Origin: Nitrospirae bacterium GWB2_47_37
GTDB lineage: Bacteria > Nitrospirota > Thermodesulfovibrionia > Thermodesulfovibrionales > Dissulfurispiraceae
DNA: 18,748 bases
Reading direction: 5' to 3'
NCBI GenBank assembly: GCA_001803635.1
Contig: MHDU01000011.1
Location: 1 to 18,748, forward strand
How positions within the stretch are numbered: the stretch's first letter is position 1; the number at the start of each line of letters is the position of its first letter. Positions 3,088-17,113 of the stretch are shown one piece after another. The translations under genes were made by a program, and so were the position numbers. The notes below the pieces were generated by a model. That model ran no database searches. It worked only from the letters and a program-made list of their open reading frames with translations, and was not told the origin of the DNA.

Positions 3088-3327
3088 ATGAAGACAAGAA
3101 TAAATAGAACCGTCCCGTTTTTTGTATCGAGGAGTATTCTCTCCCCCAGGGAGAAAGAGATTTTGGAGCGCATGAGAGACGGCAAAACCGACCTCGAAAT
3201 ATCCGCCATTTATACCATCAGCGAATACACTGTAAAGTTTCATATAAAGCATATCCTGCGTAAACTGCAAGCTTCAAATAGGACACACGCCGTAGGCATC
3301 GCCATGCAGAAACGCTTGCTCGATTAA
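3088..3327 (+). CDS. Solo LuxR/GerE-type helix-turn-helix transcriptional regulator (79 aa, HTH domain only)
   Basis: LSPREKEILERMRDGKTDLEISAIYTISEYTVKFHIKHILRKLQASNRTHAV matches the LuxR C-terminal HTH pattern. RBS GGGAGG lies at 3072-3077. No receiver or ligand domain is present. Confidence 0.7.
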   Translation: MKTRINRTVPFFVSRSILSPREKEILERMRDGKTDLEISAIYTISEYTVKFHIKHILRKLQASNRTHAVGIAMQKRLLD

Positions 3328-3362
3328 TTGACATCGAATCTACCCCCTACTCAAATGAGTAG
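3328..3362 (+). promoter_or_regulatory. Sigma70-like promoter candidate overlapped by a 16-bp inverted repeat
   Basis: Perfect -35 TTGACA at 3328-3333, a 17-nt spacer, then TCAAAT at 3351-3356. The palindrome CTACTCA-AA-TGAGTAG at 3347-3362 overlaps the -10. It could instead be the luxR terminator hairpin, but no T-run follows. Confidence 0.3.
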
Positions 3363-3709
3363 CTTACATTGGGGAAGGGGAATGTGGTATATAAAGGCCT
3401 GCATGTCTTGCAGCCGAACTTATAGGGAAGGTATGAACGAATTCAGTACGGCGTAAAAGAGTAAAAGATTGTGGAAATTACTGCTCAACAGAAATGCAAA
3501 AATTCCTGGAAGACTATTCCGACAGATTGCCTCGACTGTCAATGTCCGCTCCGAGCCGATTGCAGAGGAGGATGCACAGCTGCATCAGATGAGGTATATG
3601 GTTCACAATATCGGATTGATCCAATCTGTGAGTTATCTTGTTAAAAAAATTAGGTTGGTTTTTCAACGATAAGGAAAGAGCATGCCTTATTGAGATCGAA
3701 TAACGTGAG

Positions 3710-3751: not shown

Positions 3752-4303
3752 ATGCCTGACATGAAAGATTTTTTAAATCCGAAATCGATGTTAACGCCCG
3801 GCATTGCAGGCGGATTAACAGCCAGTGTTTCTTTAACATTGGCATCTGCATTTGCAATAAGCTTCAAATGGTCGGCACTTGGCATCAGTTTTTTGCTGGG
3901 GTTGCTTATAATGATTTCCATGCGGAACTCTATTCCCTTATTGCAGCGATTTATATATTGCATCCTAAATTCGCTGATTGTTTTTTCTATGGCGTTCGGC
4001 GCCGGTAAGGGCATTGATTCGCAGCCTCAGCTCGATCCTAAGATTATTGACAAAATTGTGAATACGCAATTATCAGTAGTTGAGCCTCAACCCCCTTCGG
4101 TTTTAGCGTTATCCAATGCATATGCGCAACAATATCCCATTAAATCAGATAAGCCTAAAAAAAGCACTGCTCCTTCCGGAACCGACAAAAAAGGGACAGG
4201 CAGCAATGAATCAAAGGAAAATAATCTGACCAAGAAAGAGATGGAACAGTTAAAAACGTATATTCAACAACAACAGAATTATGATAAGCGATGGTCGTGG
4301 TAA
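3752..4303 (+). CDS. Hypothetical small membrane protein (about 3 TM helices, with a hydrophilic P/K/Q-rich C-terminal tail)
   Basis: RBS GGGAGG at 3741-3746. Hydrophobic segments are GIAGGLTASVSLTLASAFAI, ALGISFLLGLLIMI and FIYCILNSLIVFSMAFGAG. I recognise no family. It is the first gene of the AT-rich cassette. Confidence 0.55.
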   Translation: MPDMKDFLNPKSMLTPGIAGGLTASVSLTLASAFAISFKWSALGISFLLGLLIMISMRNSIPLLQRFIYCILNSLIVFSMAFGAGKGIDSQPQLDPKIIDKIVNTQLSVVEPQPPSVLALSNAYAQQYPIKSDKPKKSTAPSGTDKKGTGSNESKENNLTKKEMEQLKTYIQQQQNYDKRWSW

Positions 4304-4345: not shown

Positions 4346-5152
4346 ATGTGTAAAGATAAGTCAGTGAGTCATTTAAACGAGTTAGGATGGAATGTGGTAA
4401 GATTACCTAAAGAAAATATTAATCCGCTTTTAACTCTTTCCAAATCCAATAGCTATCTTGAAACTTTAGGAGAAATCTCTGATTTCGTGATAGAAGATCA
4501 ACCCAAGCCCCCAGAAATTGTCCAAGACCAATCAGTAGCAGAAATTTCAGGTTTGGAGACTGACAAATTTGAATTGGGAATAGGACTAAAGTTTTTAGAA
4601 AAATTCCTATCTTTAGTGGGAGTAGCGGGATTAGGATTAGAAGCAAGCTTTAAGAATGCAGAATCCATTCAATTTGCCTATCAGAATGTACTGACAGATT
4701 TTGTCTATCCAGTGAAGATTGGAAAGTACTTATTGAGTGTCAGTCCTGATGTCAGTAGCCCCTTTATGGAGCATATTAATGAAGAGGGAGAGGCTTATAT
4801 TATTACAGACACGCTTAGATCTAACACATTCGGTATTGTTGCCTATGATGAAAAAGGTGTAAAAATTGATTTGGATATTTCTGCATTAAAGCAACTTCTT
4901 AGCGCTACTCCACATATTGAAGTATCTAAAGATGAGAAGAAAGTTGTTTCTTTTAAGGGGGATAAATTTCTGCGTTTTGCCTTTAAGGCAATCGGCGTAT
5001 GGGTGGAGATACGGGACGGCAAAGCGAGATTTAAACTGAATAAGCCGGAAGGACCCATTGCACCAATGAAGGCTTTACCGTCCACTTTAATTAGTCCCAA
5101 TGAACCAACACCTGTAATTTTCGGTATGAACACCCTAATCAGACTAAAATGA
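4346..5152 (+). CDS. Bacterial gasdermin-like pore-forming protein (bGSDM-like), 268 aa
   Basis: RBS GGGGAGG at 4334-4340. Cys is at residue 2. N-terminal LNELGWNVVRLPKENINPLLTL..LETLGEISDF, central AEISGLETDKFELGIGLKFLEKFLSLVGVAGLGLEASFKNAESIQFAYQNVLTDFV and later EAYIITDTLRSNTFGIVA follow the conserved pattern I recall for bacterial gasdermins. The length is typical (240-300 aa). The similarity is recalled, not computed. Confidence 0.7.
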   Translation: MCKDKSVSHLNELGWNVVRLPKENINPLLTLSKSNSYLETLGEISDFVIEDQPKPPEIVQDQSVAEISGLETDKFELGIGLKFLEKFLSLVGVAGLGLEASFKNAESIQFAYQNVLTDFVYPVKIGKYLLSVSPDVSSPFMEHINEEGEAYIITDTLRSNTFGIVAYDEKGVKIDLDISALKQLLSATPHIEVSKDEKKVVSFKGDKFLRFAFKAIGVWVEIRDGKARFKLNKPEGPIAPMKALPSTLISPNEPTPVIFGMNTLIRLK

Positions 5153-5180: not shown

Positions 5181-6248
5181 ATGTCGAATCAAGAATCGAT
5201 CAACAGAGGTCTTGACAGGGCATATAATGAGTTGAAACCTGAAGATACGATAAAATGCGATATAGAGTCTGTGCGTATCGTTATCTTTTCAGATCATCAC
5301 AGGGGAGTTCGCGATGGAGCTGACGACTTCCAGCGGTGTGAAGGGGCATATTGTGCCGCACTCGGATATTATTTAGAGAGAGGTTATAACCTCATAGTTC
5401 TCGGCGATGCAGAAGAATTGTGGGAGTGTAGGCCCGCCCCTGTAATTAGAGCTTATGAAAACACATTGAAGCTTGAGGCAGAATTTTATAAGAATAGGGA
5501 AGACCGCTACTGCCGTATTTATGGAAATCACGATGATTACTGGAGGGATACGGGTAGTATTAATATAGGTGGGGAACAAATAACGGCAAGGGATAAGCTG
5601 ATGATAAGCCTGCATGATAAAAACAATAAATCTATTGGGGACATTTTTTTTGTTCATGGTCATCAAGGGACTTTTGAAAGCGACCGCTTTGGGAAGATCA
5701 GCAGGTTTTTTGTAAGAAACCTCTGGAGACCCTTTCAGAGGATTACTCATATAAAGTTGACTACACCTGCCAAGGATGCAGAATTGCGCGGCGAACACGA
5801 TACGGCAATGTATAATTGGGCTTTAAATAAGAATAATGGGCAAAAAAAGCTTTTGCTGATTGCAGGCCATACGCATTTGCCGGTATTCGCATCAAAAGAT
5901 CATATAGGAAAGATTAGCGATGAGCTTAAATCTCTTCAGCAGCAGCTTGATAATGCGAGGACATCCGGCGATCCCCATGTTGACGGCATTGCAGAACAGA
6001 CAGCGGAAAAACGGGCTGAGCTTGAATATCGAAAGGCGCAAAAGAATATGAAAGAGGATCAGAAAGGCATTTTTATGGAGAAGCCATGCTATTTTAATTC
6101 CGGCTGTTGTTCATTCAGCGATGGAGATATAACAGGATTGGAGATTGCTGACGGAAAAATAAAGCTTGTTAAGTGGCCCAAAGATAATCCGAGAGTAGAA
6201 GTTCTTGAGGATGCCGACTTGAGAAGCGATATTTTTGGAAGCTTATAG
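5181..6248 (+). CDS. Calcineurin-like metallophosphoesterase (LpxH-like arrangement) with a C-terminal extension
   Basis: The ordered metallophosphoesterase motifs are FSDHHRG, LGDAEELWE, YGNHDDYW, VHGHQG and AGHTHLP. RBS AAGGAG precedes the ATG. Confidence 0.8.
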   Translation: MSNQESINRGLDRAYNELKPEDTIKCDIESVRIVIFSDHHRGVRDGADDFQRCEGAYCAALGYYLERGYNLIVLGDAEELWECRPAPVIRAYENTLKLEAEFYKNREDRYCRIYGNHDDYWRDTGSINIGGEQITARDKLMISLHDKNNKSIGDIFFVHGHQGTFESDRFGKISRFFVRNLWRPFQRITHIKLTTPAKDAELRGEHDTAMYNWALNKNNGQKKLLLIAGHTHLPVFASKDHIGKISDELKSLQQQLDNARTSGDPHVDGIAEQTAEKRAELEYRKAQKNMKEDQKGIFMEKPCYFNSGCCSFSDGDITGLEIADGKIKLVKWPKDNPRVEVLEDADLRSDIFGSL

Positions 6249-6299: not shown

Positions 6300-6875
6300 A
6301 TGATTTACGAATACGAGATAGACGGCTTGACGGTGCGGACAGGCGATATCATCTGCACTTCTGACGGCGCTGCGGATACCGATATCAAAGGCCAGTTCTG
6401 GCGGCTGCTGGGGAAAATAATACCCGGCGAGGTCGATCACATTATTATTTATGTAGGACCAAACGGTCGTTGCGTAGAAGCGGGAGCAAAAGGCAGGGTG
6501 ATAACCTTTGAGATTATGGATACTACATGGGATTTTCAGAAGATGATTGCAAAAAGGGGAATAATAGATACCCTGTATGGAGCAGCATATCCGCTTCAGG
6601 GGAAGAGTCTGAGCGAAACGGAGATAACAGGAATACGGGAAGCGGTTGCCGCGTATTGCCTGAGGCAGGCTGAATTGGAGAAGCCGTATAATATGAATTT
6701 CCTTGATTCAACCACCGAAGATGCATACTACTGCAGCCAGCTCGCTTACCTTGCATATTTCAAACACGGCATCGACCTGAATACCGGCAAGGGAATACCC
6801 GAAATACCAGGGACTGAGCGCATAATCTTCCCGCAGGAGATATGGAGCGGGTGCGGGCATAAAAAAGCGCGGTAA
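6300..6875 (+). CDS. Permuted papain-fold cysteine peptidase/amidase, YiiX / peptidase C92 (DUF830)-like
   Basis: GDIICTSDG near the N-terminus, HIIIYVG....VEAGAKG in the middle and a late YYCSQLAYLAYFKHGIDL (catalytic Cys motif). This order is typical of the circularly permuted NlpC/P60-like YiiX family. RBS AAGGAG. Confidence 0.6.
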   Translation: MIYEYEIDGLTVRTGDIICTSDGAADTDIKGQFWRLLGKIIPGEVDHIIIYVGPNGRCVEAGAKGRVITFEIMDTTWDFQKMIAKRGIIDTLYGAAYPLQGKSLSETEITGIREAVAAYCLRQAELEKPYNMNFLDSTTEDAYYCSQLAYLAYFKHGIDLNTGKGIPEIPGTERIIFPQEIWSGCGHKKAR

Positions 6876-8114: not shown

Positions 8115-9169
8115 AAAAGCTGCTTACGATAGAAGAAAAATACGAAGAGATAACCAATTCGCTCGTAAATCCGGATGTGTTATCGAATCCCCAATTGTAT
8201 CAGAAATACTCGAAGGAGCAGTCGGATCTTTTTCCCATTGTCGAGAAGATAAAGGAGTATAAGAAGCTTCTTGCCGACCTCGAAGGTGCGGAGGAACTGC
8301 TTAAGGCCGGAGACGGCGATTTAAGGGATCTTGCTCAGGAAGAGATGGAGGAGCTTAAAAAGAGGAAGCCCGTTGTGGAAGACGAATTGAAAATAATGCT
8401 CCTCCCCAAAGATCCGAGGGATGGAAAGAACGTAATCCTCGAAATACGGGCGGGAACAGGGGGCGAAGAGGCCGCCTTGTTCGGCGCGGCCCTTTTCAGG
8501 ATGTATTCGAAATACTCCGAATCTAAAAGATGGAAAATAGATATTATAGATTCAAGCCCGACGGGACTCGGAGGCTTAAAGGAAGTTACGGCTAATATTA
8601 CGGGCAAAGGCGCTTACAGCAGGCTTAAATACGAAAGCGGCGTTCACAGGGTGCAGCGGGTTCCCACGACCGAGGCGTCCGGAAGGATACATACCTCGGC
8701 GGCAACTGTAGCCGTGCTGCCCGAGGCCGAAGAAGTGGACATTAAAATAGAGGAGAAGGATTTGAGGATAGATACCTTCTGCTCTTCGGGCGCAGGCGGG
8801 CAGAGCGTTAATACGACATATTCCGCCGTAAGGATAACTCATATCCCTACAGGGCTTGTCGTTCAGTGTCAGGATGAGCGCTCCCAGTTGAAAAACCGCG
8901 AGAAGGCCATGAAGGTGTTACGTTCGAGGCTTCTGGAACTCGAAATAGAAAAGAAGGAAAAAGAGCGTGCCGCCGACAGGAAGACGCAGGTCGGAAGCGG
9001 GGACAGGAGCGAGAGGATAAGGACTTATAATTATCCGCAGAACCGTATATCCGACCACAGGATAGGGCTTACGCTTCATAAGCTCGAACAGGCACTTGAA
9101 GGGAATCTCGATGAGCTTATCGACGCCTTGATAACCCATTATCAGGCGGAGAGGCTTAAGGAATTGTAA
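8108..9169 (+). CDS. prfA: Peptide chain release factor 1
   Basis: GGQ motif [13 protein letters not shown]1-type tripeptide region [17 protein letters not shown], and full-length similarity to RF1. The ORF track starts at TTG 8099. GTG 8108 is better spaced from AAAGAGG (8091-8097). It overlaps the DUF1385 stop. Confidence 0.9.
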
Positions 9170-10054: not shown

Positions 10055-11367
10055 TGGGCAAGATAGCGATACTTGTATTTTTGTTGTTCCTCGGAGTCCT
10101 CGGTTTTTTTGCGGTCGAGAACAAAGACGCCGTGATCATGAAAATTCCCTTCGGCGACGCTTATGAGATCCCGAAGATAGCGCTTGTTCTCCTTTCCTCC
10201 ACCATAGGCGCGCTTGCCGTCCTTATCGTGTTTTTTATAAGAGATACGAAACGCGTAATCGAAAATCTCCAGTATCAGAGGAGGCAGAAGAAAGAGGCCA
10301 GGATTCAGGAATTTTATTCCAAGGCGTTGAACGCCATAATGGGCGATAAGGAGGAGGAGGCGCGGGAAGCCCTCGGCGATATATTGAAGGAGGACCCGGA
10401 ATATATAGACGCCCTTTTACGGCTCGGCGACATCTCGCTCAATAACGGAAAATATGAAACCGCGTTCGATTATTACAAAAAGGTGAAGGACATAAACCCG
10501 AAGAATCTACAGGTGCTTTTTTCCATGGAAACAGTGATGGAAAAGCTGCAGAGATACAACGACGCGTTTAATTACCTCGAAGAGATACTCGATCTCGATC
10601 CCGAAAATCTTACCGGGCTCTACAAGAAGCGCTCTCTCCTCGAAAGGAAAGAGATGTGGGACGACCTCCTTTCCACGCAGAAGGCGATAATCAAGCTCGA
10701 ACATAACGAGCACGACAGGCAGCGGGAAGAGCGCAGGATGCTCGGTTATAAATATGAATACGCCCGCGCGAGCCTTGAAAACGGAGATGTTGAAAAGGCG
10801 GAAAAGGCGTTCAGGACAATGCTCAAGATGGACGGTAATTTTGTCCCGGCGCACCTCGGTCTTGCGGAAGTCATACTTATGAAAGGAGAGACCGAGGAGG
10901 CGATAAACTTTCTCGAAAAGGCGTACGAGCAGCTCAGGTCGATAATAATAATCGCTCGCCTTGAAGACCTTCTCATCAACGTAGGAGAACCGGGCAGGCT
11001 TATAAGATTCTATAAAAACGCCATAGCTAAAAATCCTCAGGACAACGGGCTGAGATTTCTCCTCGGCAAGCTCTACTACAGGCTTGAAATGGTCGATGAC
11101 GCCATGGAGATGCTGAATTCAATCGATACCACGGTCTTTTCGGTGCCCGAGCTGTATAGTTTGAAGGGAGAGTTATATATAAAGAGGAGCCAGATACAGA
11201 AGGCGCTGGACGAACTTAAAAAGGCATGCGGCATAAAAAGGCCGTTTAAGATCCAATACTGCTGCTCAAACTGCGGTTTAAAATCCGAAGACTGGTCGGG
11301 AAGGTGTCCCGGATGCACGGAGTGGAATACCTACAGGCTCGACGTTTATGGCTCCTGCAAAGCGTAA
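10054..11367 (+). CDS. lapB: LapB/YciM-like protein: N-terminal TM anchor, TPR repeats, C-terminal rubredoxin-like zinc site
   Basis: N-terminal TM helices, multiple TPR-like repeats (ALNAIMGDKEEEAREAL..., YETAFDYYKKV...), and a C-terminal CCSNCG...RCPGCTEWNTY (CxxC...CxxC) as in LapB. The ATG overlaps the rlmH stop (TGATG). Confidence 0.6.
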   Translation: MGKIAILVFLLFLGVLGFFAVENKDAVIMKIPFGDAYEIPKIALVLLSSTIGALAVLIVFFIRDTKRVIENLQYQRRQKKEARIQEFYSKALNAIMGDKEEEAREALGDILKEDPEYIDALLRLGDISLNNGKYETAFDYYKKVKDINPKNLQVLFSMETVMEKLQRYNDAFNYLEEILDLDPENLTGLYKKRSLLERKEMWDDLLSTQKAIIKLEHNEHDRQREERRMLGYKYEYARASLENGDVEKAEKAFRTMLKMDGNFVPAHLGLAEVILMKGETEEAINFLEKAYEQLRSIIIIARLEDLLINVGEPGRLIRFYKNAIAKNPQDNGLRFLLGKLYYRLEMVDDAMEMLNSIDTTVFSVPELYSLKGELYIKRSQIQKALDELKKACGIKRPFKIQYCCSNCGLKSEDWSGRCPGCTEWNTYRLDVYGSCKA

Positions 11368-12058
11368 AGACAGCGATGAGTTATCAGTGATGAGTGATGA
11401 GTTAAAAAACAAAAAAAAATCAAAGACGAAAAGTAAAAGCTCAAAAGCAAGCACATCACCGTCGTTAAAAGTCGTACTCGATACGAGCCTTTTCGTAAAT
11501 CCGGACGTCAGGACAAGCCTCGGAGCAACCCCCACAGAGGCTTTGGAAACATTCCTTTTTCTGGCGGCGCAGATACATATACTCGAATTCTACATGCCTC
11601 CGTCGATATTCGAAGAACTCCTGCATTTTGTGGAGAGGGACAAGATACCGGCCGATCTCCTTCTTATCTTGCATCAGAAACCGCCTAAAAAACATGAACT
11701 CACGACTCCCGCCTTTCTCTTATACGAATTGATTGAGGACATAAGGGAAAGGGTGAACAAGGGGCTGCGGATAGCAGAAAAGGCCGTAAGGAGTACAGAT
11801 CAAAAAAAGACGGATGAAATCGTTCAGGATATGAGAAGAAAGTACAGGGACGCGCTTAGAGAAGGGATCATCGACAGCAAGGAAGACGTCGATCTCCTGC
11901 TGCTCGCCATGGAACTTGACGCCCTGCTTATCACGGCCGATCAGGGGCTGATAAAGTGGGCCGAAAAATTAGGTGTAAGATGGCTGTTCCCGGAGAAATT
12001 CAAGGAATATTTAATGAGCGCGATAAAAAGAACCGAACTTCTTTCCGCAAAAGAATAA
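11348..12058 (+). CDS. PIN-like HARP family protein (homolog of Aquifex protein-only RNase P) with a Lys/Ser-rich N-terminal extension
   Basis: The core is VVLDTSLFVNPDVR...FYMPPSIFEEL...NKGLRIAEKAV...RRKYRDALREGIIDSKEDVDLLLLAMELDALLITADQGLIKWAEKLG. It closely follows the Aq_880/HARP pattern as I recall it. Residues 1-40 are K/S-rich. An alternative start is the ATG at 11390. Confidence 0.65.
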   Translation: MAPAKRKDSDELSVMSDELKNKKKSKTKSKSSKASTSPSLKVVLDTSLFVNPDVRTSLGATPTEALETFLFLAAQIHILEFYMPPSIFEELLHFVERDKIPADLLLILHQKPPKKHELTTPAFLLYELIEDIRERVNKGLRIAEKAVRSTDQKKTDEIVQDMRRKYRDALREGIIDSKEDVDLLLLAMELDALLITADQGLIKWAEKLGVRWLFPEKFKEYLMSAIKRTELLSAKE

Positions 12059-12076: not shown

Positions 12077-14302
<2,226 letters not shown>

Positions 14303-14304
14303 CT

Positions 14305-14449
14305 GAAAATTTTTTTAATGTCCTAACCCACAATGAAGGTGTCATTATCGACTGTAGTTTTAGTTTGGCTTAGGCTGGACAAACCCAAGCGTACATTCCT
14401 TCATCATATAGGCGTTTTACAATTAAGGCTCTTTTTGATTTTCGCAAAC
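14305..14449 (-). ncRNA. tracrRNA candidate (model 1): anti-repeat at 14449-14417 followed by about 110 nt of hairpin scaffold running toward the cas9 stop
   Basis: Plus strand 14417-14434 reads TTACAATTAAGGCTCTTT, the reverse complement of repeat segment AAAGAGCCTTAACTGTAA with 17/18 matches. Weaker inverted similarity continues to 14449. The one difference is a G-U wobble only for minus-strand RNAs. Hairpins at 14368-14390 and 14330-14348 also gain G-U pairs only on the minus strand. The ends and the strand are inferred, and no clear promoter or terminator was found. Confidence 0.5.
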
Positions 14450-14538
14450 CCCCTGGGGTTTATTTCAAAAGATGGCTTTTAGAAAATTATTGAAAATTTT
14501 CTCTGAAAACTTCTTGAAAATACTAAGCTATAAGGACG

Positions 14539-14645
14539 GTTTCAATCATCATTTTCAAAGAGCCTTAACTGTAATGTGCTGCCGTCCTGTGAGAGGGCTA
14601 TCTGCGGTAGTTTCAATCATCATTTTCAAAGAGCCTTAACTGTAA
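14539..14645. CRISPR. Minimal CRISPR array: two identical 36-nt repeats and one 35-nt spacer
   Basis: GTTTCAATCATCATTTTCAAAGAGCCTTAACTGTAA occurs at 14539-14574 and again at 14610-14645. The spacer is TGTGCTGCCGTCCTGTGAGAGGGCTATCTGCGGTA (14575-14609). The transcription direction is unresolved; the anti-repeat logic favours minus, while the AT-rich upstream region and the GTTT start favour plus. Confidence 0.85.
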
Positions 14646-14654
14646 CGCTCATAT

Positions 14655-14994
14655 AAGCAAGGTCTGTCCGCCGGAGAGGACGGTGTTTTCTCCATCGGTC
14701 GCGCTACTGAACCAACTGACTGTCAGTTAGACGAAACAATCAGAACAGAGTCCCTGCCGGAAACCGTTTCCGGTCGTCCAGCGAACATTGAGAAAGCTGC
14801 GACGCCAGATGCACCTTCCGGTGGGAAGTCCTCCGCTCAAACGCCTGAAGCGTCTCGCAGCCTTTCTGAAACAAATCAAAAAAGCTGAGACAAGATTCCT
14901 TTAAAATAGAGCATCTCAAAGAAAAGTCCCTGCGAGCAATGCGCTTCTTGAAGGAAGCCCCTCTCTAACGTCCGAAACGCTCAGGGACACTAAA
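14655..14994. ncRNA. GC-rich, densely self-complementary non-coding segment between repeat 2 and a degenerate repeat copy; candidate structured RNA of unknown class
   Basis: No ORF of 60 aa or more on either strand. Helices read by eye are 14664-14683 (6 bp), 14757-14773 (CCGGAAA/TTTCCGG, 7 bp), 14792-14866 (17 Watson-Crick bp in four blocks with an apical CTTCC/GGAAG hairpin) and 14926-14988 (GTCCCTG/CAGGGAC enclosing GCTTC/GAAGC). CTGAGA at 14885-14890 can pair with either TCTCA (14914-14918) or TCTCAG (15000-15005). Confidence 0.4.
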
Positions 14995-15030
14995 ATATAT
15001 CTCAGAATTGTAAAAGAGCCTAAACTATAA
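14995..15030. repeat. Degenerate third copy of the CRISPR repeat (direct orientation), 349 nt from repeat 2 and overlapping the cas1 promoter region; alternative anti-repeat if transcribed from the minus strand
   Basis: ATATATCTCAGAATTGTAAAAGAGCCTAAACTATAA matches the repeat at 25/36 positions by hand alignment. The half at 15013-15030 matches 16/18 and the other half 9/18. TATAAT boxes lie on both strands, at 15026-15031 (+) and 15045-15040 (-). Confidence 0.55.
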
Positions 15031-15081
15031 TATGATTACATTATATGCCTTTAAATTTCAAGAGCTTTAGCGGAGGTGGAT

Positions 15082-16275
15082 ATGCAAAGCAATACTTTTA
15101 AAATTTCACGCATCCATCCTGAATACGTGCCTAAAGAAAAATTGCCTCTTGCCCAATTCAATCTTTTTACAAACGAAGCGGAGAGCATTCCCTTATTGAT
15201 CGACAAAGATGTTGACGACGAGATATTTATCGATGAAGGGATTTCTCTGATAAAAAGCGGCGATTCATCGCAGATAGTGTTATCGGGGTTCGGCATTTTT
15301 TTAAGCAAAAAGAGCGAGCGTCTTATTGTAAAGAAAAACACTAAAGTTGTTTATGAGTTTCCCTTTTTCAGGCTGAACGAAGTCATCATGGCTTCCCGCG
15401 GCATATCGCTGTCGTCGGATCTTATAGAGGAATTGTGCGAGAGGGGTATAAGACTGAATTTTCTGAACAACAACGGCAAGCCGTACGCAATGCTTTCTTC
15501 TCCGATGCTCTCCGCAACCGTCATATCAAGAAGAGAGCAGATTATTGCCTTTACCGATACGCGCGGTCTTCAATTCTCAAAAGCTATTGTGGAGGGCAAA
15601 ATCAGAAATCAAGAAAGACTTTTGAGATATTTCGGCAAATATATTAAAACTGTTGACAGCGCCAGGTTTGACAGAATAGAGGAGATAACAGATGTCATTA
15701 GGAAGATGAGCAGGCAGGTGGAAGGTATTCACGGGCAGAGCATTGAAGATGCAAGAGGCAGACTGATGGCAATTGAAGGCGCTTCAGGTAGGCTATACTG
15801 GGACGGCGTTAAGGAGATAATCGGAAATAGAATAGAGTTTTTCGGGCGGGAAACGCGGGGAGCCATTGATGCCGTAAACTCCCTGCTGAATTACGGCTAT
15901 GGGATTTTATATTCCCACGTCTGGGGCGCCGTTATAAACGCCGGGCTTGAGCCGTTTGCGGGGTTTCTTCATGTGGACAGGCCCGGAAAGCCGTCTCTTG
16001 TTTTGGATTTGGTCGAAGAGTTTCGTCAACCTATTATCGATAGGATTGTAATCGCCCATATTAATCTTGGAGAATCAATCGAAATTAGAAATGGCCTGCT
16101 TGAAGCTGAGACCAGAAAGCTGATAGGGAACAAAATTATTGAAAGGCTGGAGAGTCAGGAAACACTTGACGGCAAAAAATATAAAATTAGGTCGATAATC
16201 CAGATGCAGGCCAGAAATTTAGCGGCCTTTCTGAACGGCAAAAGAGAATACAAAACGTTCAGATTTAAGTGGTAA
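15082..16275 (+). CDS. cas1: CRISPR-associated endonuclease Cas1
   Basis: Canonical C-terminal Cas1 motifs EGASGRLYW, AIDAVNSLLNYGYGILY, GFLHVDRPGKPSLVLDLVEEFR. RBS GGAGG at 15072-15076 favours ATG 15082, although the track starts at GTG 15076. Confidence 0.9.
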   Translation: MQSNTFKISRIHPEYVPKEKLPLAQFNLFTNEAESIPLLIDKDVDDEIFIDEGISLIKSGDSSQIVLSGFGIFLSKKSERLIVKKNTKVVYEFPFFRLNEVIMASRGISLSSDLIEELCERGIRLNFLNNNGKPYAMLSSPMLSATVISRREQIIAFTDTRGLQFSKAIVEGKIRNQERLLRYFGKYIKTVDSARFDRIEEITDVIRKMSRQVEGIHGQSIEDARGRLMAIEGASGRLYWDGVKEIIGNRIEFFGRETRGAIDAVNSLLNYGYGILYSHVWGAVINAGLEPFAGFLHVDRPGKPSLVLDLVEEFRQPIIDRIVIAHINLGESIEIRNGLLEAETRKLIGNKIIERLESQETLDGKKYKIRSIIQMQARNLAAFLNGKREYKTFRFKW

Positions 16276-16278
16276 TTG

Positions 16279-16560
16279 ATGGAAGAACATACAGTCTATA
16301 TTTTTTACGATATAGAAGATGACGGCATACGCAATAAGATTGCGGAGAAGTGTAAAGACTATGGGCTCGAAAGAATACAGTTCAGCGGCTTTTCCGGCAT
16401 TTTAAATAGAAACAAGCGGGAAGAACTATTTCTAAGGCTCATTTCTTTAATTGGCGGCAAATCAGGCAAAATTCTTATGCTTCCCTTATGTGAAAGGGAT
16501 ACGAAGGTAAGAAGGGAGTTTATACAGGAAGGACAAGATGATTCAACTGAGGGTCGGTGA
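16279..16560 (+). CDS. cas2: CRISPR-associated endoribonuclease Cas2
   Basis: About 93 aa. The N-terminal beta strand VYIFYDIEDD carries the conserved Asp, and the ferredoxin-like length is right. It starts 4 nt after the cas1 stop (TTG 16276 or ATG 16279). Confidence 0.8.
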   Translation: MEEHTVYIFYDIEDDGIRNKIAEKCKDYGLERIQFSGFSGILNRNKREELFLRLISLIGGKSGKILMLPLCERDTKVRREFIQEGQDDSTEGR

Positions 16561-17113
16561 TCTCAAGCAGTTCGTATATTGTCCAAGAGTCGTGTTCTAC
16601 AATTATGTGATGCCTGTCGAGAAAGTTCCAACCTTCAAGATGGAGCATGGGAAGATAGCAGAGGATAAAATAGACAGGCTTGAGCACAGAAGAAAACTTA
16701 AAAAGTACGGCTTGTCCGGCGGGGAAAGGGAATTCCACTTGAATTTATATTCTCCGAAATATGAGTTATCAGGCAAGATTGATCTGCTTATCAATACTGT
16801 CGGTTCTTATTATCCGGTTGACTTTAAATATACCACCTCGCAGCCGCATAAAAATCATATCTATCAACTTTTGGGGTATGCCCTAATACTTGAAGACATA
16901 TATAAATGCAAAGTCAATAGGGGATTTGTATATATAATTCCCAAAGAGGATGCAATTTCTTTTGACTTAACGGATGATTTGAAGGGCAAAGCAGAAATTT
17001 TGCTTGATGAGATCAGAGATATGATAGCATTGCAGCAAATGCCTGCCCCTGCAAACTCCAGAAATAAATGTGACGACTGCGAATATAGGAATTTCTGCGG
17101 AGATATTTTTTGA
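16538..17113 (+). CDS. cas4: CRISPR-associated exonuclease Cas4 (RecB-like nuclease with a 4-Cys cluster)
   Basis: N-terminal Cys (FVYCPRVVFY), the nuclease motifs GKIDLL and YPVDFKYT, the QxxxY-like IYQLLGYALIL, and a C-terminal CDDCEYRNFC. It overlaps cas2 by 23 nt. Confidence 0.85.
   Translation: MIQLRVGDLKQFVYCPRVVFYNYVMPVEKVPTFKMEHGKIAEDKIDRLEHRRKLKKYGLSGGEREFHLNLYSPKYELSGKIDLLINTVGSYYPVDFKYTTSQPHKNHIYQLLGYALILEDIYKCKVNRGFVYIIPKEDAISFDLTDDLKGKAEILLDEIRDMIALQQMPAPANSRNKCDDCEYRNFCGDIF

What the first reader, a model, noticed from the sequence alone, without database searches (positions are those of the whole stretch)
14646..14994. 349-nt GC-rich, highly structured non-coding segment sitting between CRISPR repeats like a giant spacer
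The segment is bounded exactly by repeat 2 (which ends at 14645) and the degenerate repeat copy (which starts at 14995). It is clearly more GC-rich than the AT-rich flanks and has no ORF on either strand. It is packed with long helices. One is a 17-bp interrupted helix at 14792-14866 with an apical hairpin that reads CACC-GGAA-GGUG (a GNRA loop) on the minus strand. Another is 14926-14988 with a nested GCTTC/GAAGC hairpin. A third is the 7-bp CCGGAAA/TTTCCGG hairpin at 14757-14773. There are also mutually exclusive partners for CTGAGA (14885-14890), and the 9-mer AGTCCCTGC occurs twice (14749-14757 and 14925-14933). Wobble evidence for strand is mixed. Possibilities include an extended guide scaffold (compact RuvC-HNH effectors such as IscB compensate for a small protein with large RNAs) and an insertion into an ancestral array. 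It could also be a structured leader or an unrelated regulatory RNA. I could not match it to any RNA family from memory.
Basis: partly seen in the sequence, partly recalled or inferred. Interest (0 to 1): 0.7.

Follow-up and report, generated by a model that had tools for sequence, protein, structure and literature searches.

The report
Orphan structured insert in Cas9d array
The 349-base segment is real and folds unusually well on the minus strand, but it is not part of the Cas9d guide RNA: it is a strain-specific non-coding insert in a variable "cargo slot" at the promoter end of a tiny CRISPR array, where related bacteria carry small protein genes instead.

Summary
Bases 14646-14994 lie exactly between an intact repeat and a degenerate repeat. 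They are more GC-rich than the flanks and show no coding signal. On the minus strand they fold far better than shuffled controls (z -3.4 overall; -3 to -4.3 in 150-nt windows over 14700-14999; flanks about 0).

The "extended guide scaffold" reading fails. The true tracrRNA lies elsewhere (about 14320-14449, minus strand). It is conserved in every related Cas9d locus examined, including the published NsCas9d locus, and shows compensatory pair changes. crRNA and tracrRNA are therefore minus-strand RNAs.

The 349-nt segment has no match in any of the 53 loci fetched from public collections, except a 99.7% identical copy in an independent assembly of the same population. Even the closest relative (Cas1 97% identical) lacks it.

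The same slot lies between a conserved minus-strand promoter-like motif beside cas1 and the first intact repeat. In relatives it holds a DUF5618 gene (at least 12 loci), a DhiT/DhiA-like toxin-antitoxin pair, another small ORF, decayed repeats, or nothing.

Best reading: dispensable, lineage-specific cargo sitting in a spacer position, probably transcribed as a structured 5' part of the pre-crRNA. Its own function is undetermined. With only two near-identical copies, covariation cannot be tested.

The parts
14646..14994 (-). The 349-nt non-coding, GC-richer segment. It sits in a spacer position. The structure signal is on the minus strand, mainly in 14700-14994.
   Evidence: It is absent from relatives and present at 99.7% in the independent assembly L039.
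14793..14864 (-). Long interrupted hairpin with a CACC-GGAA-GGUG apex (read on the minus strand). The only SNP against L039 (14854 C>T) falls in a 2-nt bulge by my hand-indexing of the helix.
14926..14988 (-). Branched hairpin GUCCCUG...CAGGGAC with nested GCUUC/GAAGC. On the minus strand it is followed by UUUUCUUU.
14757..14773 (.). Perfect 8-bp palindromic hairpin CCGGAAAC/GUUUCCGG.
14995..15030 (-). Degenerate terminal repeat (69% to the repeat). It is the first repeat in the inferred direction of pre-crRNA transcription. It keeps TTGTAAAA, as in L022, L023 and L046, which is a predicted -35 for a plus-strand cas1 promoter.
   Evidence: The duplex with the tracrRNA anti-repeat is -22.0 kcal/mol.
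15031..15066 (-). Conserved motif ATARTGTAATCATAT plus TTGAAA. It is a minus-strand sigma-70-like promoter (TTGAAA-18-AATCAT with TG). The inferred start is near 15025.
   Evidence: It is nearly invariant in 11 loci, including the cas1-less NsCas9d locus. The start site is inferred, not measured.
14610..14645 (-). Intact CRISPR repeat 2, immediately 3' of the segment on the minus strand.
14575..14609 (-). The only normal spacer (35 nt).
14539..14574 (-). Intact CRISPR repeat 1.
14320..14449 (-). tracrRNA. The anti-repeat is at 14417-14449, followed by the conserved scaffold ending in GGGUUAGGAC.
   Evidence: The repeat:anti-repeat duplex is -28.4 kcal/mol on the minus strand and -21.0 on the plus strand. 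nhmmer gives E 1e-32 to 1e-15 in related loci. Seven pairs show compensatory changes and there are many G-U pairs. Relatives carry GCCAGAAAUGGC, which matches stem-loop 2 (G115-C126) of the published Cas9d sgRNA (PMC11903963).
12092..14302 (+). cas9d (736-aa ORF; RRXRR, HNH and Cas9_RuvC domains). It is 67% identical to NsCas9d.
15082..17113 (+). cas1 (15082-16275), cas2 (16276-16560) and cas4 (16538-17113).

Best explanation
The segment is lineage-specific, non-coding cargo sitting in a spacer position at the promoter-proximal end of a minimal type II-D (Cas9d) CRISPR array. It is not part of the guide RNA.

In this family the tracrRNA and crRNAs are minus-strand RNAs. A conserved promoter-like motif beside cas1 points into the array on the minus strand. 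The stretch between that motif (with its degenerate first repeat) and the first intact repeat is a variable slot. In relatives it holds a DUF5618 gene, a toxin-antitoxin-like pair, another small ORF, decayed repeats, or nothing. In this strain it holds 349 nt of non-coding sequence.

Inferred mechanism:
- Transcription starts near 15025, inside the degenerate repeat, and runs through the segment into repeat-spacer-repeat.
- The right-hand 300 nt or so fold into stable minus-strand helices and form a structured 5' domain of the pre-crRNA.
- tracrRNA pairing with the repeat at 14645-14610 and RNase III cleavage would separate this domain from the one real crRNA.
- The last 20 nt or so of the segment would be left as a pseudo-guide.

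Shown: position, non-conservation, non-coding character, strand-specific fold stability, and the location and strand of the tracrRNA.
Inferred: the promoter, transcription through the segment, processing, and any function of the fold.
For: - tracrRNA located elsewhere and conserved. Its strand agrees with the published Cas9d sgRNA stem-loop 2. Published Cas9d scaffolds are about 117-nt tracrRNAs within 156-173-nt sgRNAs, which the region at 14320-14449 fully accounts for.
- The segment is absent from all related loci by nhmmer and blastn. This includes L041, whose Cas1 is 97% identical.
- The slot is variable: DUF5618, DUF4160/DUF2442 resembling DhiT/DhiA, another ORF, nothing (L024), or decayed repeats plus the same degenerate repeat (L022/L023).
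- L046 keeps both a degenerate repeat and DUF5618, which is the same architecture as the window with the cargo swapped.
- The promoter-like motif on the minus strand is conserved, also beside the array of the cas1-less NsCas9d locus.
- The fold signal is specific to the minus strand.
- The segment is real and not a chimera: an independent assembly is 99.74% identical over 14.8 kb and carries it with one SNP.
Against: - No transcript data exist, so the promoter, the start site and read-through are consensus-based inferences.
- Two U-rich tracts follow hairpins on the minus strand (about 14925-14915 and 14884-14868). They could end transcription before the array, which would make the segment a separate small RNA or an attenuator rather than a simple leader.
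- The terminator scan found none on the minus strand.
- The strong z-scores suggest selection for structure, which simple 'cargo' does not explain.
- With only two near-identical copies there is no covariation test.
- The origin of the sequence is unknown.
Confidence: 0.55

Rival explanations
1. Functionless relic. A piece of foreign or rearranged DNA was captured by recombination at the repeat boundary, or by an aberrant integration event, in a nearly empty and possibly decaying array. The helices are incidental to its source sequence.
For: - The segment is an orphan: there is no homologue in 53 loci, in phage or plasmid collections, or in viral contigs.
- The array has only one spacer.
- Slot contents turn over quickly even among close relatives.
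- The segment abuts the repeat boundary exactly, as the DUF5618 cargo does.
- The right-most 35-60 nt align weakly with decayed-repeat trailer sequence of L022/L023.
Against: - Minus-strand z-scores of -3 to -4.3 over about 300 nt are far outside the local background, and they are strand-specific. Random or decayed DNA should not show this.
- The trailer alignment is not significant on its own: 53 to 246 of 1000 shuffles score as well.
- No internal decayed repeats were detected.
Confidence: 0.28
2. Autonomous accessory or regulatory RNA riding on the pre-crRNA promoter. One version is an RNA-based addiction module or cr-like regulator (CreTA-like or tracr-L-like logic), in which the degenerate repeat or the pseudo-guide recruits Cas9d. 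Another is a conditional terminator that gates crRNA output.
For: - The structure signal is strand-specific.
- The slot holds toxin-antitoxin-like cargo in relatives.
- A degenerate repeat flanks the segment and can still pair with the tracrRNA at -22 kcal/mol.
- Alternative, mutually exclusive helices and U-tracts are present.
- Cargo genes and cr-like RNAs in CRISPR loci are documented (PMC10120712; PMC8501985 and PMC9458426).
Against: - The pseudo-guide has no partial target in the window.
- The segment shows no unusual pairing with the tracrRNA (-39.4 kcal/mol against -37.8 +/- 3.3 for shuffles).
- No convincing mini-ORF or toxin feature was found.
- The segment is not conserved, and no Rfam family matches.
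Confidence: 0.1
3. Extended guide scaffold or alternative tracrRNA for the compact Cas9d.
For: Cas9d uses a larger scaffold than other Cas9s. The adjacent degenerate repeat is complementary, on the plus strand, to the minus-strand repeat RNA at -21.7 kcal/mol.
Against: - A complete, conserved tracrRNA of the published size exists at 14320-14449.
- The segment is missing from NsCas9d, from the loci of 66%-identical, 747-aa-class relatives (L004/L026) and from all other relatives.
- The plus strand, where the degenerate repeat would act as an anti-repeat, has no fold signal.
- The segment would lie 5', not 3', of that anti-repeat.
Confidence: 0.03
4. Plus-strand cis-regulatory 5' leader or terminator region for cas1-cas2-cas4, or a terminator for cas9d read-through.
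For: A plus-strand terminator-like hairpin lies at 14664-14683 followed by TGTTTTCTCC, and a plus-strand promoter-like site (TTGTAA-17-TATGAT) lies at 15008-15036.
Against: - The predicted cas1 promoter lies downstream of the segment, so the segment would not be in the cas1 mRNA.
- Plus-strand z-scores are about 0 except in one window.
- Relatives manage without the segment.
Confidence: 0.04

Closest known systems
Cas9d (type II-D) tracrRNA / sgRNA scaffold (NsCas9d, Cas9d-MG34-1; PMC12339737, PMC11706934, PMC11903963, PMC9755519)
   Same: Same locus type; Cas9d here is 67% identical to NsCas9d. Both are structured non-coding RNAs next to the array on the same strand as the crRNA.
   Different: The real scaffold is the conserved region of about 130 nt at 14320-14449. 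The 349-nt segment has no anti-repeat, shares no sequence with the scaffold and is absent from all other Cas9d loci.
Cargo genes and repeat-like elements inside CRISPR-cas loci: toxin-antitoxin cargo, mini-arrays with a degenerate distal repeat, CreTA, tracr-L (PMC10120712, PMC8501985, PMC9458426, PMC11417352)
   Same: It is a non-spacer element embedded in a CRISPR locus and flanked by an intact and a degenerate repeat. The same slot carries toxin-antitoxin-like genes in relatives.
   Different: The 'spacer' is 349 nt rather than about 30-40 nt. No partial target was found for the pseudo-guide. No toxin element was recognised. The system is type II-D, whereas the described cases are mostly type I and V-A. 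The segment is non-coding, unlike the protein cargo of relatives.
CRISPR leader
   Same: It lies between the inferred pre-crRNA promoter and the first intact repeat, so it would be the 5' untranslated part of the pre-crRNA.
   Different: Leaders are AT-rich and conserved among related loci. This segment is GC-richer, structured and unique to one population. The conserved leader-like sequences are the motif at 15031-15066 and the AT-rich 14450-14538.
IscB omega-RNA / HEARO RNA
   Same: A large structured RNA associated with a compact RuvC-HNH nuclease. The published Cas9d scaffold resembles the 5' part of omega-RNA (PMC12339737).
   Different: No Rfam match to HEARO or any other family. It is not adjacent to a guide in the omega-RNA arrangement. 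It is not conserved with the nuclease.

Membership tests
tracrRNA / Cas9d guide scaffold | Anti-repeat able to pair with the CRISPR repeat on the crRNA strand | tested here: not met
   The best duplex of the minus-strand repeat RNA with the segment is -18.3 kcal/mol, against -28.4 at 14410-14449.
tracrRNA / Cas9d guide scaffold | Conserved together with the Cas9d gene in related loci | tested here: not met
   No nhmmer or blastn hit in any related locus, whereas the cas9d-array spacer region hits at E 1e-32 to 1e-15.
tracrRNA / Cas9d guide scaffold | Sequence and structure of the published scaffold (P1 to P4, stem-loop 2, 3' GGGUUAGGAC) | tested here: not met
   These features are found at 14320-14449 and in relatives, not in 14646-14994.
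CRISPR spacer | Flanked on both sides by repeats | tested here: met
   Intact repeat on one side and a 69% degenerate repeat on the other.
CRISPR spacer | Length typical of the system (35-44 nt among 104 spacers of related arrays) | tested here: not met
   349 nt against gaps of 35-44 nt.
CRISPR spacer | Derived from a mobile element (protospacer match) | tested here: inconclusive
   No match in phage or plasmid collections (one 60-nt plasmid hit at 78%, E 2e-3, is judged chance). Three 19-20-mers found nothing in viral contigs.
CRISPR leader | Lies upstream of the first repeat in the direction of transcription and is conserved and AT-rich | tested here: not met
   The position fits, given the inferred promoter. 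However, the segment is GC-richer and not conserved.
Any Rfam family | Covariance-model score at or above the gathering threshold | tested here: not met
   There were 0 hits at gathering threshold over the whole window. The best sub-threshold hit was Fibrobacter-1 at 21 bits against 77.9 needed, E 0.11.
cr-like regulatory RNA / CreTA-type module | Pseudo-spacer partially complementary to a promoter in or near the locus, with a PAM | tested here: not met
   The 16-nt repeat-proximal end of the segment has no other match with up to 3 mismatches in the window. The rest of the genome could not be searched.
cr-like regulatory RNA / CreTA-type module | Degenerate repeat(s) flanking the element | tested here: met
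Protein-coding gene or pseudogene (including decayed DUF5618 cargo) | Detectable protein homology or host-like codon usage | tested here: not met
   - No Pfam match and no real homologue.
- tblastn with the cargo proteins of relatives gave only noise.
- nhmmer found nothing.
- Global alignment to DUF5618 cassettes gave z 1.2-2.9.
- Codon scores are in the non-coding range.
MITE / IS-derived element | Terminal inverted repeats and a target-site duplication | tested here: not met
   No inverted-repeat pair joins the two ends of the segment. There is no second copy in the window. The flanking direct repeat is the CRISPR repeat itself.
tRNA / tmRNA | ARAGORN detection | tested here: not met
   0 genes in the window.

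The most novel reading that the evidence does not exclude
The segment could be a functional RNA cargo that has replaced the protein cargo (DUF5618 or toxin-antitoxin genes) normally carried between the pre-crRNA promoter and the array of type II-D loci. Two versions are possible. In one, a structured RNA domain is co-transcribed with, and processed from, the pre-crRNA by tracrRNA and RNase III. It would then act as an RNA-only addiction or regulatory module, or yield a crRNA with a giant structured 5' extension whose last 20 nt or so program Cas9d. In the other, it is a conditional terminator that gates crRNA production.
Probability: 0.1. Interest if true: 0.7.

Novelty: new variant of a known kind. 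Interest (0 to 1): 0.35.

Why it matters
For Cas9d engineering the result is negative but useful. The guide scaffold of this enzyme, a 67% relative of NsCas9d, is the conserved tracrRNA of about 130 nt at 14320-14449. The 349-nt segment can be ignored when designing an sgRNA.

For CRISPR biology, the comparison exposes a recurrent cargo slot between the pre-crRNA promoter and the array of type II-D loci. It usually holds a DUF5618 gene whose stop codon lies inside the first repeat. That arrangement, in which cargo is co-transcribed with crRNAs, was not mentioned in the Cas9d papers consulted here. If the orphan RNA is functional, it would be an RNA counterpart of that cargo.

Tried and rejected
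- Rfam at gathering and at permissive thresholds: nothing credible.
- ARAGORN: no tRNA or tmRNA.
- Homologue searches for the segment:
  - nhmmer and blastn against the 53 loci fetched from public collections found only the same-population copy L039.
  - blastn against phages found nothing; against plasmids it found one 60-nt GC-rich hit in an intergenic stretch of a Skermanella plasmid, judged to be chance.
  - Three exact 19-20-mer scans of viral contigs found nothing.
- Coding hypothesis:
  - The 80-codon stop-free plus-strand frame was searched against 1.84 billion representatives. Only two tandem-repeat proteins came back, and they are spurious.
  - Pfam gave nothing.
  - Codon usage is in the non-coding range.
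- Decayed DUF5618 gene. The slot lengths are strikingly similar (385 nt against 387 nt), but there is no sequence or protein similarity. Cas1 is 97% identical to a DUF5618-bearing relative, so decay cannot explain it.
- Decayed repeat-spacer units inside the segment: the best identity to any repeat is 20 of 36, within the shuffle range. The weak alignment of the right end with the L022/L023 trailer is not significant alone.
- Spacer matches: 94 unique spacers from related arrays show only chance matches to the segment.
- Self-target for the pseudo-guide: none in the window.
- Special pairing of the segment with the tracrRNA: none.
- The conserved motif acting as a cr-like guide against the cas9d promoter. 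It shares a 12-mer with a site upstream of cas9d in one lineage, but the repeat-proximal bases mismatch and no NGG follows in register. The motif is also absent upstream of cas9d in the window.
- I tried to recover the published sgRNA sequences from paper texts to fix the numbering. They are not in the held texts. The strand was fixed from stem-loop 2 and from covariation instead.

Full report
**What is there**

The window carries a compact type II-D CRISPR-Cas locus.
- A 736-aa ORF at 12092-14302 (+) has RRXRR, HNH and Cas9_RuvC domains. It is 67% identical to NsCas9d of Nitrospirae bacterium RBG_13_39_12 (P0009).
- Two identical 36-nt repeats lie at 14539-14574 and 14610-14645, with one 35-nt spacer between them.
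- The 349-nt segment follows at 14646-14994.
- A 69% degenerate repeat lies at 14995-15030.
- cas1, cas2 and cas4 lie at 15082-17113 (+).

**Check of the observation**

- Composition: GC is 0.50-0.60 inside the segment and 0.31-0.40 in the intergenic flanks.
- ORFs: the longest are 59 and 50 aa, TTG-started, on the minus strand.
- Stop-free frame: a plus-strand frame runs 80 codons from 14646 without a stop or a start codon. It has no Pfam match. Among 1.84 billion representatives it hits only two tandem-repeat proteins, through many weak repeats of the same match.
- Codon usage: all six frames score as non-coding, -0.19 to -0.41, against +0.22 +/- 0.11 for in-frame chunks of the window's genes.
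- Fold statistics for the whole segment: MFE z is -3.41 on the minus strand (0 of 100 shuffles as good) and -1.36 on the plus strand.
- Sliding 150-nt windows: minus-strand z is -3.0, -4.25, -2.5 and -4.07 across 14700-14999. All windows in 13800-14650 and 14900-15850 stay between -1.8 and +2.0.
- Single helices are individually weak (z -1.0 to -2.2).

The strand that matters is the minus strand, and the signal sits in the right-hand 300 nt or so.

**Where the guide scaffold really is**

- A stretch at 14417-14449 is the reverse complement of the repeat. As minus-strand RNA it pairs with the minus-strand repeat RNA at -28.4 kcal/mol. The plus-strand version gives -21.0, the difference being due to G-U pairs.
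- The whole region between the cas9d stop codon and the array is conserved in every related locus that extends far enough. nhmmer gives E 5e-32 to 1e-15, including the NsCas9d locus L002/L021.
- An alignment of 11 minus-strand copies gives a consensus fold with 37 pairs. Seven of them show compensatory changes, for example C-G to U-A in 5 of 11 and 4 of 11 sequences, and there are many G-U pairs.
- The relatives carry GCCAGAAAUGGC. This is the 4-bp stem-loop 2 (G115:C126 to A118:U123) described for the Deltaproteobacteria Cas9d sgRNA (PMC11903963).
- Published Cas9d scaffolds are about 117-nt tracrRNAs within 156-173-nt sgRNAs (PMC12339737, PMC11706934).

The tracrRNA of this locus is therefore about 14320-14449 on the minus strand. 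The crRNAs are minus-strand too, and nothing is missing from the scaffold.

**The segment is an orphan**

- nhmmer and blastn with the 349 nt found no match in any of the 53 loci fetched from public collections.
- The one exception is L039, an independent ENA assembly of a groundwater metagenome. It is 99.74% identical to the window over 14.8 kb and carries the segment with one SNP, 14854 C>T, which by my indexing lies in a 2-nt bulge.
- That copy rules out an assembly artefact, but it gives no power for a covariation test.
- The closest other relatives all lack the segment: L041 (Cas1 97% identical), and L031, L032 and L033 (Cas9d 88% identical).
- Phage and plasmid collections and three exact 19-20-mer scans of viral contigs gave nothing credible.
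- Rfam gave nothing and ARAGORN gave nothing.

**The slot**

Lining up the relatives shows what the position means. All loci share a nearly invariant block, ATARTGTAATCATAT, preceded by TTGAWW when read on the minus strand. It lies about 45 nt upstream of cas1, and it is also beside the array of the NsCas9d locus, which has no cas1. In the window it scores as a sigma-70-like minus-strand promoter: TTGAAA-18-AATCAT with an upstream TG, at 15061 to 15032. Because crRNA and tracrRNA are minus-strand RNAs, this is the natural candidate for the pre-crRNA promoter. That is an inference.

Between this block and the first intact repeat the content varies:
- nothing (L024);
- 23 nt (NsCas9d locus);
- decayed repeats plus a degenerate repeat sharing TTGTAAAAGAGC with the window's copy (L022, L023);
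- a 125-128-aa DUF5618 gene on the minus strand (L019, L030-L033, L041, L042, L045-L048, L051, L053);
- a DUF4160/DUF2442 pair resembling the DhiT/DhiA toxin-antitoxin system (L029);
- another small minus-strand ORF (L001, L004).

In L033 the last 10 nt of the DUF5618 ORF (3140-3526) lie inside the repeat (3114-3149). The cargo therefore abuts the spacer-repeat junction exactly, as the 349-nt segment does. L046 has both a degenerate repeat and DUF5618. That is the window's architecture with different cargo.

The slot measures 387 nt in six DUF5618 loci and 385 nt (349 + 36) in the window. There is nevertheless no sequence or protein similarity. With Cas1 97% identical to a DUF5618-bearing relative, replacement is the only tenable history; decay is not.

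**How it most likely works**

Shown:
- The segment sits in a spacer position at the end of the array that faces the conserved minus-strand promoter-like block.
- It is non-coding.
- It is dispensable for the family.
- It has a strand-specific excess of fold stability.

Inferred:
- Transcription starts near 15025, inside the degenerate repeat, and reads through the segment and then repeat-spacer-repeat.
- The tracrRNA pairs with the repeat at 14645-14610, and RNase III separates the structured 5' domain from the single genuine crRNA.
- The last 20 nt or so (GGACAGACCUUGCUUAUAUGAGCG) would be left as a pseudo-guide. It has no other match in the window.

On the minus strand two hairpins are followed by U-rich tracts, at about 14925-14915 and 14884-14868. 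The RNA could therefore end there, as a small RNA or an attenuator. The terminator scan did not call these sites. The segment shows no special pairing with the tracrRNA, and no spacer of related arrays matches it.

**Rivals**

- A functionless relic remains quite possible (about 0.28). The array is almost empty and slot contents turn over fast. A relic does not explain z-scores of -3 to -4 confined to one strand.
- A functional accessory RNA (about 0.1) fits the structure signal and the toxin-antitoxin-like company of the slot. It also fits the documented cargo and cr-like RNAs of CRISPR loci (PMC10120712, PMC8501985, PMC9458426). No target, toxin feature or conservation supports it.
- The extended-scaffold idea is contradicted by the comparative data (about 0.03).
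- A plus-strand regulatory role for cas1 is unlikely (about 0.04). The predicted cas1 promoter lies downstream of the segment, and the plus strand has no fold signal.

**Comparison and novelty**

The segment is not a member of the tracrRNA/sgRNA family, of any Rfam family, or of the spacer, leader, MITE or coding classes; the membership table gives the tests. It is closest in kind to cargo embedded in CRISPR-cas loci and to mini-arrays with a degenerate distal repeat. It differs in three ways: it is a 349-nt non-coding, structured element; it is in a type II-D locus; and it replaces protein cargo. I rate it a new variant of a known kind, of moderate-to-low interest as it stands, because it is an orphan without testable conservation. 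The recurrent DUF5618 slot noticed on the way may be the more general finding.

Noticed in passing
L019 7873-8250; L030 about 8260-8640; L031-L033 (e.g. L033 3140-3526); L041 about 185-572; L042 236-622; L045 34-417; L046 3523-3900; L047, L048, L051, L053: A 125-128-aa DUF5618 gene on the minus strand sits between the conserved promoter-like motif beside cas1 and the first intact repeat in at least 12 type II-D loci. Two of these (L019, L030) have a Cas9 only about 25% identical. In L033 its stop codon lies inside the repeat. No held paper mentions DUF5618, and PDB 3mfn ('uncharacterized protein') is the only solved relative. It may be an unrecognised accessory gene co-transcribed with the pre-crRNA.
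   Followed up: partly
L029 4679-5184: In one relative the same slot holds a DUF4160/DUF2442 gene pair. It resembles the DhiT/DhiA type II toxin-antitoxin system, with scores below NCBIfam cut-offs. L001 and L004 carry a different 78-100-aa minus-strand ORF there, with no family match.
   Followed up: partly
window 15031-15066; L011 749, L034 4259, L035 644, L046 771, L047 405: The nearly invariant block ATARTGTAATCATAT lies next to the array in 11 loci, including the cas1-less NsCas9d locus. A related 12-mer (ATGATTACACTA) also lies about 60 nt upstream of cas9d in one lineage, but not in the window. It could be a shared promoter element or an operator for the cas genes and the array.
   Followed up: partly
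window 14995-15030; L022 4715-4750; L023 8675-8710; L046 about 3915-3940: The terminal degenerate repeat keeps TTGTAAAA where intact repeats have TTTTCAAA. This coincides with the predicted -35 of a plus-strand cas1 promoter, TTGTAA-17-TATGAT. The decayed repeat may have been exapted as part of the cas1 promoter.
   Followed up: no
window 14539-14645: The array is minimal: two intact repeats and one 35-nt spacer, and it is the same in the independent assembly L039. Relatives have up to 29 spacers (L023).
   Followed up: no
window 14450-14538 and the equivalent region in relatives: The AT-rich stretch between the tracrRNA anti-repeat and the first repeat is conserved among loci. Read on the minus strand it contains CGCTTTTATTTTGCTG.AAATTCAAAG and TTTTTTGAAATAAACCC..GGGGTTTGCG. 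It probably holds the tracrRNA promoter and possibly the spacer-acquisition end of the array. Repeat variants accumulate at the cas1 end in L023, which suggests that the cas1 end is the older end even though transcription appears to start there.
   Followed up: no
window 4346-5152: The identical ORF in L039 carries a precomputed PF26164 (bacterial gasdermin) label. hmmscan against the Pfam copy available here found nothing at E <= 1e-3. Its neighbours are a metallophosphatase-like ORF (5181-6248) and a Peptidase_C92-like ORF (6300-6875).
   Followed up: partly
window 11348-12058: A PIN_5 (PINc ribonuclease) gene ends 33 nt before the cas9d ORF and overlaps the upstream TPR/LapB-like gene. It has the same arrangement in L039 and L040. 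Relatives have unrelated upstream genes (ParA-like, Archease/RtcB), so it is probably not part of the CRISPR system.
   Followed up: no
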